Source of the DNA: Fidelibacterota bacterium
GTDB lineage: Bacteria > Fidelibacterota > Fidelibacteria > Fidelibacterales > Fidelibacteraceae
Assembly: GCA_029931905.1 (NCBI GenBank)
Contig: JAOZRH010000001.1
Coordinates: 19,031 to 83,030 of the forward strand
Direction: 5' to 3'
Length of the DNA: 64,000 nt
This document shows, piece by piece, positions 4,843-64,000 of this stretch. The position numbers and the translations under genes are program-made. The notes under the pieces were generated by a model. It was not told the origin of the DNA, made no database searches, and saw only the letters and a program-made list of their open reading frames with translations. How positions within the stretch are numbered: position 1 is the first letter of the stretch; every line of letters starts with the position of its first letter.

Positions 4843-4858
4843 ATTGGTAAATTAAATG
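4843..4858 (+). promoter_or_regulatory. initiation-region motif ATTGGTAAATTAAATG (includes the start codon)
   Basis: The same 16-mer occurs at 24327-24342. Close variants lie at 15949-15965, at 32659-32673, and on the minus strand at 37611-37626. Confidence 0.5.
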
Positions 4859-6121
4859 ATATATTCAAGAGCAGACAAGGTTGAACAATATCTATCCCAT
4901 TATAATATCACTGGGGTAGAAGCTTAGAAGGGCAGTTGGAACACACGTCTTTATCTAACGAACATCCATACCAATAAGCCATATAAATTAGAGATCCAGA
5001 ATCCTCTTTATAATATTTTATCAGGGGAGGATAATCATCATGAGTTTGATCCAAAGTCATTAAATGGTCATAATTATTTATTACGAAATATGATATTTGA
5101 TTATACAGATGTTGGGATGACAGAGTTTATTGCTAATTTTCTTAACACAGAGTATTATAAGCGGTATGGTACATTAGAGCATGAAGCAGGGAAGAAATAG
5201 TCGAGTGAATATTTTTCTTTCTTAGAGATGAAAGATATAGAATTGATTAAAGGTTTAGCCGGTTTCAAGGATAATGTTATTACTGGTGTATATGGTAATT
5301 TCTTTACCATGGATGATGACACATTGAGATTTACATTTAAGCCTACCACACCTATTGTTGAGAATATTAACAAGGTTCATTTTGCCCAATCCTTTATATT
5401 TACCAAGGATGGATGGCAGTATCCCACATATTACATTATATATACTAAAAAAGGATCAACAGATGTTTAGTTTGAGTAGACTAATTTATTAGTTAATTCA
5501 ATTACTAACAATGGATCTGTTGTTGTTAATTTATCACAGTTATTTGGTGATAAGTGGACAGACATTTCATCTGATATGGATACATTATCTGGATTTGGTA
5601 CAGAATGGTTTATTGTGCCATCCTTATTCACATGTGCAATTATGCGGAACACACCTACTGGAATATTACGATACATTCCCATTAATTTTACAAAACAATT
5701 TTTTAATATTACATTTAATAATATGGATATTGAAGCAAAGGCTATAAGGGATGGTGATAGTGGTGAATAGATAAACACTGAACCCAATTTTAATGATAGT
5801 AATGCAGTATTAGAGGTAATTGATAACACTTCGTCGGAATAGACAGAATCAAAGAAGGCTTCCTTTGTATATAAGGATGATCGTATAGTTCCTTGGTCAA
5901 GTATGGAGCATGTTGAATTTTTAGATCAGTTATTAAAGTTGTCAAGTACAGCAGAATATTTTAATGATGTATTATTTTCATTAGAGGATTCGGAGTTTCA
6001 GTTTCCTATATATTTAATTACACCGATAGATAACGAAGTGAGTCATGGACCTTATGGCACTTAGTTTAATGACGATTATATTGACAATGTTGGTGTAGTA
6101 AGCGTGGGTGGTGGCGAATGA
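4856..6121 (+). CDS. hypothetical protein, 421 aa, 7 in-frame TAG
   Basis: ATG at 4856. Track ORFs 5228..5470 and 5576..5770 share the frame and are joined only by TAG. The terminal TGA at 6119-6121 overlaps the next ATG (ATGA). Confidence 0.8.
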
Positions 6122-6633
6122 TTTATAAATGGTATATAAATAATGATTTTAAGTTATTGGTAAGGACGTGGGTATTTTTAACAATGGATATGTACGTAAT
6201 GTCATTTAAAGATCCTAACACAGATTATTTCTATGATCAGTTGTCAAGTAAGTTATTTAATAATGAACAAGATATTGACGTTATGAAATATTGGTATAAT
6301 CCAGTTAAGATGGTGGATGTTGTTGAAAGTGTAACACAGAAGACAGAAACAGACATACATGTTGGTAAGAAGAATTATACAATGATTCACATTCAGTCAC
6401 ATGAAGATATTTATAATATGTCATTTTCTTCTGATATTAAGGATGTTTTCATAGTGTAGATGAAACGTTTTGATAAAGACAATTATCTGGCACCAGTATG
6501 TATAAGGGTTGATGAAGAATGGTTAAATTATTATGAGCACAACCTTGATTTAAGTAATTTATTACAAGAGAGAAGTAATGTAAGTGATGTCAACAATTTG
6601 TTATCTAATTTTAGAAAAGCAATATTCATATAA
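6118..6633 (+). CDS. hypothetical protein, 171 aa, 1 in-frame TAG
   Basis: Track ORF 6118..6459 continues past TAG 6457 to TAA at 6631-6633. Confidence 0.75.
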
Positions 6634-6645
6634 GGGAAAAATATA

Positions 6646-60132: not shown

Positions 60133-60145
60133 TTATATTTCCCTA

Positions 60146-63100
60146 TTAACAGTATGTTTGATTAAATTCTGAAATAACATTTTCATTTTTTATAATACGA
60201 ATTACTTTATCACCAAACCATCTATTTCCAAATAACCTAATTTTTTCTAAATTAATCACATTGTTAATTATTATTTTAGAATATAAATGTCCATTAATTG
60301 AAATATAAAGGTGATTATCCAAATTTTTAATAGTAATGATTAAATTTTTTCTACTTACATCATTAAGTGAATCTTTTAATTTGGTTGAAATCACATTTGC
60401 ATCATATACACTGGACATTTGATTTTTACTAATCATTCTTGCTAAATCATATTTACTTTCAGAATTGATATAGTCTAACTCCGTTTGTGTTAATTCGTAA
60501 TTATAATATGCAATATATTTATTATGAAATCCTGCAATTCCACCATGACACTTTTCAACATATGATGTTGGTTCATGTGAATATGCACATGTAGTATCAA
60601 ATGAAATTTCTTCAACTAAATGGTCATAACTTGTATTATCCAATGTCAATCTCATCATCTCAGGACTTTTTTTCTTTTCTCTATTAATAATTAAAGAAAG
60701 TGCATAGTGATTACTATTAGGAGTTTCCGTTGGTACTATTTGTAAATTTGATAATTTAATTCCATAAAATTTAGAATCTTTGTAATCCTAAAATACTTCA
60801 CCTGCACCTAAGTACCAATCAGGATATGTCGAAGTATTATAAATTTTATCACTACTTAATCGTAAAATTCCAAATGCACAATCCATATACATTGCGTGAA
60901 ATGCATATAATTGGCGATTTTGACCCACTTTACCATATGAATGAAACATGTTCTAATATGCTAATATAAGTGCACTTCCAGCATCCCAATTTGATAACTA
61001 TGTAATTGCAGTAGATGTAAAATTTGTTACTGATTTATGTTCATAATTATATTTTGTCTATGACCAATTATCTTGTACACCTGTCTATTCACTTTCACTA
61101 TATAAACATAGGGGATCGAGCATAGCATGTATATCGATATCTGGCAGTTGCTCTGCTGTGTTATCAAGAAAAAAGGTTTTTCCCATCATAGTTGTCTAAT
61201 ACATATGTTTGTTAGATTGAGTTACATTAGTATTTTTTTGAAGTGCATTTTCAACTAAATTAAAAAATCTTATATCTATTGATGGTTCCATTATCATAAA
61301 TGCAATACATTTATTTGAATATTCACCATATTGCCATATATCAAAATTTTTGACTAAATGAGTATTATCTTTAAATAAATCAATATCTCTTGAAATTAAA
61401 TCATAATATAAAGTATTAAATGTAACAGAATCATTGAAAGATACTGAAATTCCGTCATTATTTAATACATTATCAAATATATTTTTTTGTCCAATTTCAT
61501 TTTCAATATTACCAACCGAATCACATAAAATATTTATAGTAAGTTCTTCTTTATCTAAAATAGTATAATTAGAAATGTCAATCTCAAGTGTATGGTCTAC
61601 ATTATCAGTTGCTGCTATGTTTAATGCCGTTGTATCAGAAACTGATGCTGTAGCATTCAATTCGTCTGAAATAGCATTAGATAGCATATTTTCATACGAC
61701 ATTTGTGAATTATAGAAAGGAATCACATTTGTAAATGTATTTAATGAATAATCAACAAATGTATATGCAGATTTTGAAGAAGATGACATTACATTTTTAT
61801 CTGCAATGATTGTTAAATTTATATCCAATACATCGATTGTAATATTTGAAGTAATATAATCAATGGATGCTTTACTATATGTGGTACCATCATCATCAAC
61901 AAAATGGTCAATTTCATAAGACGAAATGATTCCATTCATTACTGGTTTTAATCTATGATAGTGTCTAACTTGTTGATATGGAAATTTGCATAATGTATAT
62001 TCATTTGCACCATCAACAACAATTGCAGACAATGTTTTTGGTATTGTATTTTGTGATGTTATAAGATTTGTGATAAATGTATTATTATTATTATCAAGGG
62101 TGTCTAAGTCAATATTGTTATATTCAGTAATATCCTTTAATGTTATATATGGATCAGCTTTAAATGCTAATAGATCTTCTATAACCTTACCACCGACTGA
62201 TATATTAAACCGATCTGTCCCAGTTAATTTAATAAATGTGTCATTATTTATAAAATCGATCATATCATTCTATTTAATATAAAATGGCATTCTATAAACA
62301 GATGCATAATCATCTACAGTATTTCCTTTAAATTTGGTAATTAGCTTTTTATTTGTTAACGTATTTGTATTAAGTGAATCCAATGATATAAAGTTATTAA
62401 CAATACCAAAATGTGAAAGTTCAAATGCACCAGTAGAATCAACATCTACATCTATTGTCATTAAGGTTTTAAATGAATACATTGTTGTAGTAGAATCTAC
62501 TTCATTAACTTTAATTACATTACCAGAAATTTTATTAATTGAACCATTAATATCCTGTATCTCAACCAAATTAACATTTTTGTCAACTGAGTATAAATAT
62601 GTAATATTTTGATCAGACCCATTTTTAATAATTGAACTTTTCAAAATGTCATTGGAATTAGGTAAAATAATATTATGATTTGGGAAAATAACCCAATTAC
62701 CAACTTCTAAATATAATGGTGCAACATTTTTAATCATCGTTGCATTATGGGTAAGTGCATTTATCTATGTAGAATATTTAACTGCCATTTGATAATATAA
62801 TAATTTTGTGTTATCACCATTGTCATATATGCAATATGTTGATGGAATTTCTCTATAACCAACAACATCTACAATTGTATTATCAATCTACAATCTTCTT
62901 GAATTATCATTAAAAAAATAAGACGAATATCGCCAATCCATTGTTATATCAGATTGATTATAACTGGCAAATATGAGGTTGGTATCAATAGTTTCTTCAC
63001 TAAAATGAATACCATTATATACAAAATTTGTTAAATTTTTTAAATTTAAACCATCTATATTAGTTTCTATTTCAATAAAGTTCACAAACTCAAGTTTAAT

Positions 63101-64000
63101 CTAATCAAATGTACATTCATAAATTACATCTGGATCACTTTTTTTAACTACTTGGAATTTGTCATCTTTGATCTATTCAACTGTGATCAATATTTCTGAT
63201 AGTGATTTTGAAATTACGTCATTGTCATCATAATAAAAATCTAACATTAATTTTCCAGCAATTTTATGAATAATCAATAGCTGTTTAAGGTTTTTACTAT
63301 TAGGTAACATTAAATTAAATAAAGAGTGTGTATAGATTTTCTTAATAGTAAATACTATATCATCATCTGTATAGTAAATTGGAATACCAAATGGTGCATC
63401 ATCATAGTTTTTAACCTGTGCTATTGGTTGATCTCTATAATACAATTGCTATTCAAGTGTCATTTTATCAGCATTGTTATCAGATTGTAAAAACCTATCT
63501 CCGAGTGAGTAGTATGGTGAAATTTTATTAATGTTTTTTAAAAATGTTTGATTGTTAGCTAAATAATTATAACCAAATAATTGAATTGTAAAATCAATAG
63601 ATGAAAAATTTAAATTAATTTGATGCCCACTTGATATTGGAAATTTTATACCTTTTACATTATTATATTCATCCATCAAAAGTTGACTTGTTGAAAATAA
63701 ACTTAATGTAGTTGATGCTTTTATCATAGCTGGATCATCAAGTTCATCAGTAATTGAATTTCCGATATATGCTAATTCACCAGATGTTGTTATTTTAAAT
63801 AAAGCAAATGTATTGGCTTTTTCCTGTAATGTATATGTAGGATCAAATTTCTGTAAAAATGATATAAAATTTGTATTATAATCCTGCCCATCATTATAAG
63901 TTCTGTAGTGATTAAATTTTTGCATAGACGGTACAAAGAATAATATGAAATATTCACCATTAACACTTGTGAAAGGATTTTGTTGATTATATTTACATGG
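60146..64000 (-). CDS. giant hypothetical (virion-type) protein, 5' partial, at least 1284 aa, at least 12 in-frame TAG
   Basis: Track ORFs 63449, 63173, 62888, 62270, 61196 and 60146 share one frame. The 537-nt gap at 60659-61195 is open except for TAG. The frame is still open at nt 64000. TAA at 60146-60148. Confidence 0.85.

What the first reader, a model, noticed from the sequence alone, without database searches (positions are those of the whole stretch)
4856..64000. TAG is used as a sense codon across the structural part of the window (stop-codon reassignment)
Consecutive track ORFs fall in the same reading frame again and again, with nothing but TAG between them. Examples are 9 ORFs across 15963-22490, 6 across 24340-32655 and 5 across 12042-15890. 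I hand-translated every gap and found no TAA or TGA. All delimited gene ends are TAA, or TGA at 6119, 11736, 24276, 45130 and 52045. Many of the TTG/GTG 'starts' in the track sit just after a TAG, so they are artefacts of truncation. Several stretches of 500-700 nt have no track ORF (42468-43166, 49856-50545, 60659-61195) yet are open in the flanking gene's frame apart from TAG. In a genome this AT-rich, random frames hit TAA or TGA every dozen or so codons, so chance cannot explain this. The pattern matches TAG-recoded phages (translation table 15, TAG=Gln, reported for some crAss-like and Lak-type phages). The identity of the inserted amino acid is not visible here.
Basis: partly seen in the sequence, partly recalled or inferred. 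Interest (0 to 1): 0.9.

Follow-up and report, generated by a model that had tools for sequence, protein, structure and literature searches.

The report
Phage late genes read TAG as tryptophan
This piece of a very large, AT-rich phage genome uses the stop codon TAG as an ordinary codon in its late (virion) genes, and comparison with relatives shows that it stands for tryptophan, not the glutamine assumed for all TAG-recoded phages described so far.

Summary
With only TAA and TGA as stops, 35 gene models cover 98% of the window. They hold 163 in-frame TAG codons and no in-frame TAA or TGA, against about 1,560 expected by chance. Table 11 would cut them into 198 pieces.

The table 15 (TAG=Gln) reading is not supported. 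Four lines of evidence point to tryptophan:
- In two close relative contigs, window TAG codons pair with TAG (57), TGG (32) or Tyr codons (5). They never pair with CAG, and pair with CAA only twice, in poorly aligned genes.
- In three more distant, more AT-rich relatives, window TGG codons are mostly replaced by TAG.
- A likelihood test over all 20 amino acids gives lnL -314 for Trp, -533 for Tyr and -656 for Gln.
- In a conserved tape-measure motif, relatives' TAG falls on a column that is F/W/M/Y in 123 distant homologs. It is 'Q' only where databases translated TAG with code 15.

Replication and nucleotide-metabolism genes (two helicases, PolB, NrdD/G) contain no TAG and use only TGG. This fits a late-gene code switch in a host that reads TAG as stop. 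No suppressor tRNA, tRNA synthetase or release factor lies in the roughly 86 kb I could read, so the mechanism is inferred. I found no report of TAG=Trp in a phage.

The parts
2..1314 (+). Small early-type genes: the C-terminal 302 aa of a 374-aa protein (2-910), an 80-aa ORF (900-1142) and a 62-aa ORF (1126-1314). All are TAG-free as called in public gene calls.
1378..1635 (+). 85-aa ORF with 3 in-frame TAG and 1 TGG. It is the first TAG-containing gene in the window and lies upstream of the finding's stated start (4856).
1639..4791 (+). ResIII/SNF2-type helicase, 1050 aa, with two intein-like insertions. 0 TAG, 13 TGG (standard-code gene).
4856..6121 (+). 421-aa gene with 7 TAG and 5 TGG; ends in TGA.
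6118..7275 (+). Two genes (171 aa with 1 TAG; 209 aa with 2 TAG). Both TAGs of the 209-aa gene are also TAG in the relative L003.
7277..10348 (+). 1023-aa gene with 8 TAG and 12 TGG. In L003, 3 of the TAGs are TGG, 4 are TAG and 1 is Tyr.
10352..10774 (+). 140-aa gene with 1 TAG.
10763..11749 (-). 328-aa gene with 3 TAG. All three are TGG in relative L003 (for example ACA TAG GAT versus ACA TGG GAT).
11736..11945 (-). 69-aa ORF present in public gene calls; it ends in the TGA at 11736.
12042..15890 (-). 1282-aa gene with weak Ig-like domain hits (HYDIN/Cep192_D4). 11 TAG and only 1 TGG. In L003, 5 of the TAGs are TGG and 6 are TAG.
15963..22490 (+). 2175-aa gene with 14 TAG and 20 TGG. In L003, 7 of the TAGs are TGG and 7 are TAG. 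One window TGG and one TAT are TAG in L003. JGI called this gene as fragments of 182, 834 and 125 aa.
22494..24278 (+). 594-aa gene (585 aa in the public call) with 9 TAG and 4 TGG; ends in TGA.
24340..32655 (+). 2771-aa tail tape measure protein with 7 TAG and 11 TGG. W348 (TGG, motif MSGSWRSLQ) and W521 (motif MGSIWRDTN) are TAG in relatives L014, L015, L019 and L021.
32671..33261 (+). 196-aa gene with 4 TAG and 2 TGG.
33258..34798 (-). Two TAG-free genes (290 aa and 154 aa).
34849..36655 (-). Two genes (203 aa and 394 aa) with 2 TAG each.
36669..37613 (-). 314-aa TAG-free gene.
37698..47599 (+). Eight plus-strand genes of 285, 136, 608, 381, 629, 413, 540 and 277 aa, with 2, 2, 4, 2, 8, 2, 5 and 1 TAG. 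The region is syntenic with relative contig L012 (76-97% aa identity), where 11 of the window's TAGs aligned to that contig are TGG.
47643..64000 (-). Six large minus-strand genes of 736, 731, 795, 1148, 709 and more than 1284 aa, with 7, 11, 11, 9, 12 and 12 TAG. The last gene runs off the window; its full length is 1314 aa. The 795-aa gene ends in the TGA at 52045.

Best explanation
The window is part of a jumbo phage genome. Near-identical copies lie on a 271-kb ENA contig and a 197-kb NCBI contig. TAG is not a stop here: it is a second tryptophan codon, used alongside TGG. The code matches NCBI table 32 (TAG=Trp, with TAA and TGA as stops), not table 15. TAG is confined to genes that look late or virion-related (tape measure protein, very large proteins, one with weak Ig-like hits). 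It is absent from replication and nucleotide-metabolism genes. The most likely working (inferred, not shown) is as follows. The host reads TAG as stop, and early phage genes are written in standard code. An early or middle phage function then supplies a tRNA with anticodon CUA that carries Trp, most simply a tRNA-Trp with the anticodon changed from CCA to CUA. It may be helped by a phage TrpRS or by interference with release factor 1. Only then can late genes be translated in full. AT mutation pressure then converts TGG to TAG by a single G-to-A change that is silent under this code. This explains why TAG makes up 33% of TAG+TGG in the 31%-GC lineage, 54% here and 88-89% in the 22-24.5%-GC lineages.
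For: SHOWN, TAG is sense: 163 in-frame TAG with 0 TAA and 0 TGA in 20,951 codons. ORF cover of at least 300 aa rises from 21.6 to 57.4 kb, with no such gain in the TGA and TAA controls. Differences downstream of TAGs show a third-position excess. Five related lineages show the same gain.

SHOWN, TAG behaves as Trp:
(a) Against the close relatives L003 and L012, the 99 aligned window TAGs pair with TAG 57, TGG 32, Tyr codons 5, CAA 2 (both in genes only 46-56% identical) and others 3. Seven relative TAGs pair with window TGG. None of 95 window CAG codons pairs with TAG (hand check).
(b) The TAG/TGG interchange rate in L003 is 25/105 (24%), at least as high as the synonymous CAA/CAG rate of 33/244 (13.5%).
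(c) In distant relatives, window TGG becomes TAG 9 times in L014/L015, 10 times in L019 and 4 times in L021. The other partners of TAG are mainly F and Y.
(d) Likelihood using substitution profiles from the same alignments gives W -314, Y -533, H -554 and Q -656.
(e) TAG+TGG stays at 1.26-1.44% of codons in the window, L003, L012, L014 and L016, while the TAG share runs from 0.33 to 0.89.
(f) In the tape-measure motif L-x-G-x-[W/F]-R-S-L-Q, the column of relatives' TAG is F57 W25 M13 Y8 L8 in 123 distant homologs. It is 'Q' only in two database proteins, and in both that Q is a TAG codon. A further TAG falls on a column where W is the commonest residue.

SHOWN, partition: no TAG in the helicase (13 TGG), UvrD (7), PolB (10), RlaP, NrdG or the NrdD N-terminus. 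Together these and neighbouring TAG-free genes hold about 50 TGG, whereas TAG is 59% of TAG+TGG in TAG-containing genes. By my arithmetic the chance of this is below 1e-15. The same partition holds in L021.

Precedent: TAG=Trp exists in the extremely AT-rich Balanophora and Thonningia plastids (PMC10268348).
Against: No tRNA of any kind, and no Rfam family, was found in the window or in any of the related loci read. No TrpRS or release-factor gene lies in the roughly 86 kb of this genome that I could read. The decoding machinery is therefore wholly inferred. In E. coli a tRNA-Trp with anticodon CUA is charged by GlnRS, not TrpRS (PMC2965240), so a simple anticodon mutant would be expected to insert Gln unless other identity elements or a dedicated synthetase are involved. 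In the two most AT-rich relatives TAG+TGG falls to about 0.7% of codons, so the 'constant sum' argument holds only for the closer lineages. All evidence on the amino acid is comparative. Nothing here excludes a minority of Gln or another residue being inserted at TAG. The late or virion nature of most TAG-containing genes is inferred from size and neighbourhood; only the tape measure protein has homology support.
Confidence: 0.8

Rival explanations
1. TAG is read as glutamine (table 15), as in crAss-like and Lak phages and as public databases already translate these genes.
For: This is the only TAG reassignment reported for phages (bioRxiv 10.1101/2021.08.26.457843; PMC9523058; PMC10607447). 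E. coli GlnRS charges CUA-anticodon tRNAs, including one derived from tRNA-Trp (PMC2965240). The protein collection holds these genes with Q at TAG.
Against: None of 95 window CAG codons aligns with TAG. Only 2 CAA/TAG pairs were seen, both in genes 46-56% identical, against 39 TGG/TAG pairs. lnL for Q is -656 against -314 for W. At the conserved tape-measure column, Q is absent from 123 distant homologs and appears only where TAG was translated by convention.
Confidence: 0.05
2. TAG encodes another aromatic residue (Tyr or Phe), or is decoded ambiguously (a mix of Trp with Gln, Tyr or other residues, or partial termination).
For: Tyr is the second most frequent partner of TAG and lies one transversion away (TAT/TAC). 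F and Y dominate some aligned columns in distant homologs. Natural suppression is rarely complete.
Against: Among close relatives TAG/TGG pairs outnumber TAG/Tyr pairs 39 to 6, although Tyr codons are about 7 times more numerous than TGG. lnL for Y is -533 and for F is lower. W to Y/F are the usual replacements of Trp, so these partners are expected under TAG=Trp.
Confidence: 0.08
3. The code is that of the host cell, not a phage-imposed switch. The host also reads TAG as Trp, and the phage simply shares its code.
For: No suppressor tRNA or other code-change gene was seen in about 86 kb. Phages of code-25 bacteria are known to share their host's code (bioRxiv 10.1101/2021.08.26.457843).
Against: Replication and nucleotide-metabolism genes avoid TAG completely while using about 50 TGG, which is hard to explain if TAG were always readable. 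No bacterium with TAG=Trp is known to me, and none appeared in the literature search. No relative was found in one genome per GTDB species.
Confidence: 0.06
4. There is no recoding. The TAGs are real stops in decayed or fragmented genes, are assembly errors, or are bypassed by local read-through signals.
For: JGI/IMG annotated the same DNA with table 11 as many short ORFs.
Against: There are 163 TAGs but no TAA or TGA in 20,951 codons, against about 1,560 expected. The TAGs are identical in four independent assemblies. They are conserved or exchanged with TGG across lineages under coding constraint. The nucleotide after TAG shows no fixed context.
Confidence: 0.01

Closest known systems
TAG-recoded phages using code 15 (crAss-like, Lak, phAss-1 and others; Borges et al. 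preprint 10.1101/2021.08.26.457843; PMC9523058; PMC10607447)
   Same: An in-frame amber codon is used as a sense codon. It is concentrated in late or structural genes and absent from early or replication genes. The genome is large and AT-rich. Table 11 gene calls are fragmented.
   Different: The amino acid differs. In those phages TAG aligns with Gln, confirmed by proteomics for two crAss-like phages. Here it interchanges with TGG and aligns with Trp and aromatic columns. There is no sequence similarity to any GenBank phage record. No suppressor tRNA was seen in the part available.
TGA-recoded phages using code 4 (for example Jade and Agate phages, Lera zeta-crAss phage; PMC12386605)
   Same: A stop codon becomes a second Trp codon that is one G-to-A transition from TGG. 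Late genes are preferentially recoded. Some such phages carry a TrpRS, RF1 and a suppressor tRNA.
   Different: The codon is TAG, not TGA. TGA still terminates 4-5 genes here. A tRNA-Trp reading UAG needs a change at anticodon position 35, a TrpRS and GlnRS identity position. Reading UGA needs a change at position 34.
Balanophoraceae plastid code (NCBI table 32, TAG=Trp; PMC10268348)
   Same: The codon assignment is identical (TAG=Trp; the TAA and TGA stops of table 32 are from my own knowledge of the NCBI table). Both are associated with extreme AT bias and with progressive loss of TGG.
   Different: That case is a 15-21 kb organelle genome whose whole gene set is recoded, in a eukaryotic plastid. 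Here only part of a virus genome is recoded, presumably inside a host that reads TAG as stop.
E. coli amber suppressor derived from tRNA-Trp (anticodon CUA; PMC2965240)
   Same: It is the simplest molecular route to a UAG-reading Trp-type tRNA: one base change in the anticodon.
   Different: In E. coli that tRNA loses TrpRS recognition and is charged with Gln. The comparative data here call for Trp, so the phage or host system must differ, for example through a tolerant or phage-encoded TrpRS or extra identity elements. This was not tested here.

Membership tests
Stop-codon-recoded (alternatively coded) phage | One stop codon occurs in frame many times inside long ORFs while the other two do not, and coding density rises clearly when it is read as sense. 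| tested here: met
   163 TAG, 0 TAA and 0 TGA in frame. ORFs of at least 300 aa cover 21.6 kb under table 11 and 57.4 kb with TAG as sense; the TGA and TAA controls show no gain.
Stop-codon-recoded (alternatively coded) phage | The recoded codon is enriched in late, structural or lysis genes and avoided in early or replication genes. | tested here: met
   There is no TAG in the ResIII helicase, UvrD, PolB, RlaP, NrdG or NrdD (about 50 TGG in these and neighbouring TAG-free genes). TAG is present in the tape measure protein and in 28 other genes. The same holds in L021.
Stop-codon-recoded (alternatively coded) phage | A phage-encoded suppressor tRNA (anticodon CUA), with or without a release factor or aminoacyl-tRNA synthetase. 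| tested here: inconclusive
   No tRNA (ARAGORN) and no Rfam hit in the window, in the 16 kb beyond its 3' end, or in relatives' loci. About 185 kb of the 271-kb contig could not be read.
Genetic code 15 (TAG=Gln) | TAG positions align with Gln in homologs and alternate with CAA/CAG in close relatives. | tested here: not met
   0 CAG/TAG pairs and 2 CAA/TAG pairs against 39 TGG/TAG pairs. lnL is -656 for Q and -314 for W. Q is absent from the conserved tape-measure column except where TAG was translated as Q.
Code with TAG=Trp (assignment as in NCBI table 32) | TAG positions align with Trp and TGG, while TAA and TGA remain terminators. | tested here: met
   for Trp. Terminators are TAA in 31 genes and TGA in 4.
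Code with TAG=Trp (assignment as in NCBI table 32) | Direct evidence for Trp at TAG, such as peptides or a charged tRNA. | not testable with these tools
   No proteomic or tRNA data are available.
   No megablast or tblastn match in 50,697 GenBank phage records. No PHROG family for 12 of 14 proteins tested. No relative in IMG/VR for two queries. Whether Lak genomes are in those collections was not checked, so Lak membership is unlikely rather than excluded.
Jumbo phage (genome over 200 kb) | Genome length above 200 kb with phage hallmark genes. | tested here: met
   The near-identical ENA contig is 271,481 bp. Within the roughly 86 kb read, it carries a tape measure protein, PolB, NrdD/G and helicases. 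The rest of the contig was not seen, and completeness is unknown.
Tail tape measure protein (gene 24340-32655) | Homology to tape-measure families. | tested here: met
   There is no direct Pfam or PHROG hit. However, 249 HMMER homologs were found. Members of these hit nine PHROG 'tail length tape measure protein' families (best E-value 1.9e-10), and 10 of 40 hit Pfam TMP_3 below its cut-off.

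The most novel reading that the evidence does not exclude
A clade of AT-rich jumbo phages, represented here by at least five lineages from different metagenomes, uses a genetic code not reported for any virus or prokaryote: UAG=Trp. 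It is switched on only for late genes and is progressively replacing UGG as GC content falls. This would break the stated rule that phages only make the 'easy' reassignments TAG to Gln and TGA to Trp. It implies a tRNA-Trp(CUA)/TrpRS solution that avoids GlnRS mischarging. It also means public databases currently hold these proteins either truncated or with Gln written where Trp belongs.
Probability: 0.7. Interest if true: 0.85.

Novelty: new variant of a known kind. Interest (0 to 1): 0.8.

Why it matters
Stop-codon recoding in phages is an active field. Its current picture is that TAG always becomes Gln and TGA always becomes Trp, because host GlnRS and TrpRS happen to accept the matching suppressor tRNAs (bioRxiv 10.1101/2021.08.26.457843). 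An amber-to-Trp phage code would be a third kind.

- It shows that the amino acid cannot be assumed from the codon. Gene callers and databases that apply table 15 put about 0.8% wrong residues into these proteins, at Trp positions.
- It offers a natural tRNA/synthetase pair that reads UAG as Trp next to a standard-code host. That is of direct interest for genetic code expansion, where Trp amber suppressors are hard to keep orthogonal to GlnRS or LysRS (PMC2965240).
- It gives a clean natural series, with the TAG share of Trp codons running from 33% to 54% to 88-89% as GC falls from 31% to 22%. This allows a test of whether AT pressure drives codon capture once a stop has been freed.

Tried and rejected
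Searching for the decoding machinery failed.
- ARAGORN on the window and 17 related loci found no tRNA.
- Rfam on 137 kb found nothing.
- I walked along the 271-kb ENA contig by protein look-ups. This reached only 16 kb past the 3' end of the window and stopped when the NrdD self-hit was not returned.
- The 5' side could not be extended. The ENA contig was not shown for proteins near the window start, and all other assemblies end there.
- A pattern search for a CUA-anticodon tRNA in public collections was considered and dropped. Fewer than 14 positions can be specified without guessing, and hits could not be tied to this phage.

Searches for relatives were largely negative.
- GenBank phages: no match by DNA or protein.
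- IMG/VR: nothing with the 594-aa protein, and only a 30% identical match with PolB.
- GTDB representative genomes: nothing.
- A word-based protein search with the 2175-aa protein found only its own cluster.

Function assignment by PHROGs failed for 12 of the 14 proteins tested. Precomputed Pfam is empty for nearly all genes.

Amino-acid composition of the window alone did not separate Trp from Gln. Only the comparison across lineages did.

Structure prediction was not attempted.

Sample accessions were not found in the paper library, so environment and host are unknown.

Full report
1. OBSERVATION

The window is 28.5% GC. Reading TAG as sense raises the DNA covered by ORFs of at least 300 aa from 21.6 kb (13 ORFs) to 57.4 kb (23 ORFs). 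The same test for TGA gives 24.8 kb and for TAA gives 23.6 kb.

I built 35 gene models bounded by TAA/TGA. They cover 98.1% of the window and average 599 aa. Their 20,951 codons contain 163 in-frame TAG, no TAA and no TGA. In the other five frames of the same DNA, TAA and TGA occupy 4.6% and 2.9% of codons, so about 966 and 598 would be expected if these frames were not coding.

Terminators are TAA in 31 genes and TGA in 4. Table 11 would break the models into 198 pieces with a median of 70 aa.

The same TAGs occur in independent assemblies that are 99.7-100% identical to the window (Logan SRR21545386 and SRR6301447, JGI 3300005264, ENA ERZ23491059). Against diverged relatives, differences downstream of the first TAG of each gene fall mostly on third codon positions (1352/996/2226 for positions 1/2/3).

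2. WHERE IT COMES FROM

The proteins occur on a 271,481-bp ENA metagenome contig and a 197,384-bp NCBI contig.
- The gene calls stored for the ENA, NCBI and Logan contigs already read through TAG, and write Q there. My TAG=Q translation of the 2175-aa protein is 100% identical to database protein P0001.
- JGI/IMG called the same DNA with table 11, as fragments.

The region beyond the 3' end of the window holds a UvrD helicase with an intein, PolB, an RlaP nucleotidyltransferase, NrdG, and an intein-bearing NrdD. This fits a jumbo phage.

Nothing similar exists among 50,697 GenBank phage records or in one genome per GTDB species. In IMG/VR the 594-aa protein found nothing and PolB found only one 30%-identical locus. 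PHROGs recognises only the helicase and one C-terminal segment among 14 proteins tested.

3. WHICH AMINO ACID

Close relatives. Cluster members of the 2175-aa protein included a 93%-identical protein from MAG assembly GCA_029935735.1 that has W at several of our TAG positions. Its DNA (L003) shows real TGG codons there and TAG at the others. An example is TCT TAG TAG AGA against TCT TGG TGG AGA. Codon-level alignment used two contigs of that lineage: L003 (8,629 codons, 88% aa identity) and L012 (4,917 codons, 81%). Results (independent hand check):

| Comparison | Result |
|---|---|
| 99 aligned window TAGs pair with | TAG 57, TGG 32, Tyr codons 5, CAA 2, others 3 |
| Relative TAGs that pair with window TGG | 7 |
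| Window CAG codons that pair with TAG | 0 of 95 |
| TAG/TGG interchange in L003 | 25 of 105 sites (24%) |
| Synonymous CAA/CAG interchange in L003 | 33 of 244 sites (13.5%) |

The two CAA pairs lie in genes that are only 46-56% identical. TAG and TGG therefore behave as synonyms.

Distant relatives. A scan of JGI metagenomes and a full HMMER search with the conserved N-terminal part of the 2771-aa protein found more distant relatives:
- L014: GC 24.5%.
- L015: GC 26.8%.
- L019: a 103-kb contig, GC 21.9%, syntenic over 26 kb.
- L021: a 57-kb contig, GC 24.5%.

All are TAG-recoded by the same ORF test. In them TGG is nearly gone, and window TGG codons correspond to TAG 9, 10 and 4 times (L014/L015, L019, L021). 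This includes well-conserved motifs such as HYFNWLIRH against DYFN-TAG-LIRH, and MSGSWRSLQ against MSGQ-TAG-RSLQ. The remaining partners of TAG are mainly F and Y, the usual replacements of Trp.

Likelihood test. A comparison over the 20 amino acids, using substitution profiles taken from the same alignments, gives W -314, Y -533, H -554 and Q -656.

Composition. TAG+TGG is a steady 1.26-1.44% of codons in the window, L003, L012, L014 and L016. The TAG share runs from 0.33 (GC 31%) through 0.54 (GC 28.5%) to 0.89 (GC 24.5%). In the two most AT-rich relatives the sum drops to about 0.7%, so this argument holds only for the nearer lineages.

4. A TEST AGAINST STANDARD-CODE HOMOLOGS

The 2771-aa protein has 249 HMMER homologs. 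A sample of them hits nine PHROG 'tail length tape measure protein' families, and hits Pfam TMP_3 below its cut-off. The protein is therefore the tape measure protein.

Its W348 sits in the motif L-x-G-x-W-R-S-L-Q.
- In 123 distant homologs that column is F 57, W 25, M 13, Y 8, L 8 and E 5, and never Q.
- The only two 'Q' in the whole hit list are P0092 and P0099. In both, the Q is a TAG codon translated by convention.
- Six database proteins end just before this column and four begin just after it. Five more end just before the W521 column. These are table-11 fragments of TAG-recoded relatives.
- Another relative's TAG falls on a column where W is the commonest residue.

5. DISTRIBUTION AND LIKELY WORKING

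TAG is absent from the following genes, which all use TGG:
- the 1050-aa helicase (13 TGG);
- the 374-aa and 80-aa upstream genes;
- UvrD, PolB, RlaP, NrdG, the NrdD N-terminus and several small neighbours.

Together they hold about 50 TGG and no TAG, whereas TAG is 59% of TAG+TGG in TAG-containing genes. By my arithmetic the chance of this is below 1e-15. L021 shows the same split. Three genes inside the recoded part are also TAG-free (33258-34130, 34334-34798, 36669-37613).

This matches the pattern described for TAG=Gln and TGA=Trp phages (bioRxiv 10.1101/2021.08.26.457843), in which early genes are written in the host's code and late genes become readable only after a phage-supplied suppressor acts.

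I infer the same logic here, with a Trp-charged tRNA(CUA). I could not show it. No tRNA, Rfam family, TrpRS or release factor lies in the roughly 86 kb of this genome that I could read, or in the relatives' loci.

One real difficulty remains. In E. coli the CUA-anticodon form of tRNA-Trp is charged by GlnRS (PMC2965240). The phage or host system must therefore differ from that model.

6. COMPARISON WITH WHAT IS KNOWN

Phage stop-codon recoding itself is well known. What differs is the assignment.
- The main survey states that only TAG to Gln and TGA to Trp are seen in phages whose code differs from the host's (bioRxiv 10.1101/2021.08.26.457843).
- Proteomics confirmed TAG=Gln in crAss-like phages (PMC9523058).
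- Later jumbo-phage and gut-phage papers treat TAG recoding as code 15 (PMC13037316, PMC10607447).
- Full-text searches for TAG or UAG reassigned to tryptophan returned only plant plastid work.
- The identical assignment exists in the Balanophora and Thonningia plastids, also under extreme AT bias (PMC10268348).

I therefore file this as a new variant of a known kind. The library does not cover subscription journals fully, so a prior report cannot be excluded.

7. VERDICT

The best explanation is TAG=Trp in the late genes of a jumbo phage. My confidence is about 0.8 overall: about 0.97 that TAG is sense, and about 0.85 that the residue is Trp. The mechanism is inferred.

Noticed in passing
window 1639-4791; L007 321-2888; L016 1-1783: This is an intein-rich genome. 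The ResIII helicase carries two intein-like insertions, at about aa 99-395 (CFKIDT...VTHN|T, with a LAGLIDADG-type block) and about aa 481-797 (CKSGDT...ITGN|C). The UvrD helicase and the 1987-aa NrdD also have Hom_end, LAGLIDADG or Intein_splicing hits.
   Followed up: partly
window 2691-2824 versus L005 (JGI Ga0073581_109329): The JGI assembly of the same phage lacks 134 nt inside the first intein of the helicase. This splits the gene into 353-aa and 671-aa calls. It could be a strain variant or an assembly artefact.
   Followed up: no
upstream of window position 1 (L001 1-606; L005, L006 and L003 contig ends): Four independent assemblies (Logan x2, JGI, NCBI 36.9 kb) all end within about 130-600 nt upstream of the 374-aa gene that runs into the window start. 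The look-up tool also did not show the ENA contig there. This may be a repeat, a genome terminus or a hypervariable spot.
   Followed up: no
window 24340-32655: The tape measure protein is 2771 aa. At roughly 0.15 nm per residue (general knowledge for tape measure proteins) that would mean a tail of about 400 nm. Its C-terminal part holds a tandem duplicated module of about 90 aa (VDPDTGKPIKWFGTNVSGKENDLWST...DGSIDY), and its middle holds Gly/Ala-rich hydrophobic stretches.
   Followed up: no
database proteins P0001, P0092, P0099 and fragments P0002-P0004, P0091-P0111: Public protein collections hold this phage clade in two faulty forms: full-length with Gln written at every TAG (code 15 convention), or cut into table-11 fragments that end exactly at Trp-aligned TAG codons.
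   Followed up: yes
L003, window, L014, L019 (orthologous late genes): The TAG share of TAG+TGG rises as GC falls: 0.33 at 31% GC, 0.54 at 28.5%, 0.89 at 24.5% and 0.88 at 21.9%. TGG is being replaced by TAG. In the two most AT-rich lineages the summed Trp-codon frequency also halves to about 0.7%.
   Followed up: partly
L007 about 140-170 (upstream of UvrD, about 6 kb past the window 3' end): A strong GC-rich hairpin (TATATTCCCCCCTAAAGGGGGAATATA) sits in an otherwise AT-rich intergenic region between convergent or divergent modules. It is a likely terminator.
   Followed up: no
window 1378-1635 and L016 8194-8409: Two small ORFs inside otherwise TAG-free early-type neighbourhoods carry TAG: an 85-aa ORF with 3 TAG and a 71-aa ORF with 1 TAG. 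They are either late genes embedded there or doubtful gene calls.
   Followed up: no
window genes ending near 33261, 38977, 45132 and 54545: Four genes have a TAG within the last 12 codons before the TAA/TGA terminator (codon 191 of 196, 127 of 136, 409 of 413 and 1145 of 1148). If suppression were incomplete, these genes would give nearly full-length products either way.
   Followed up: no
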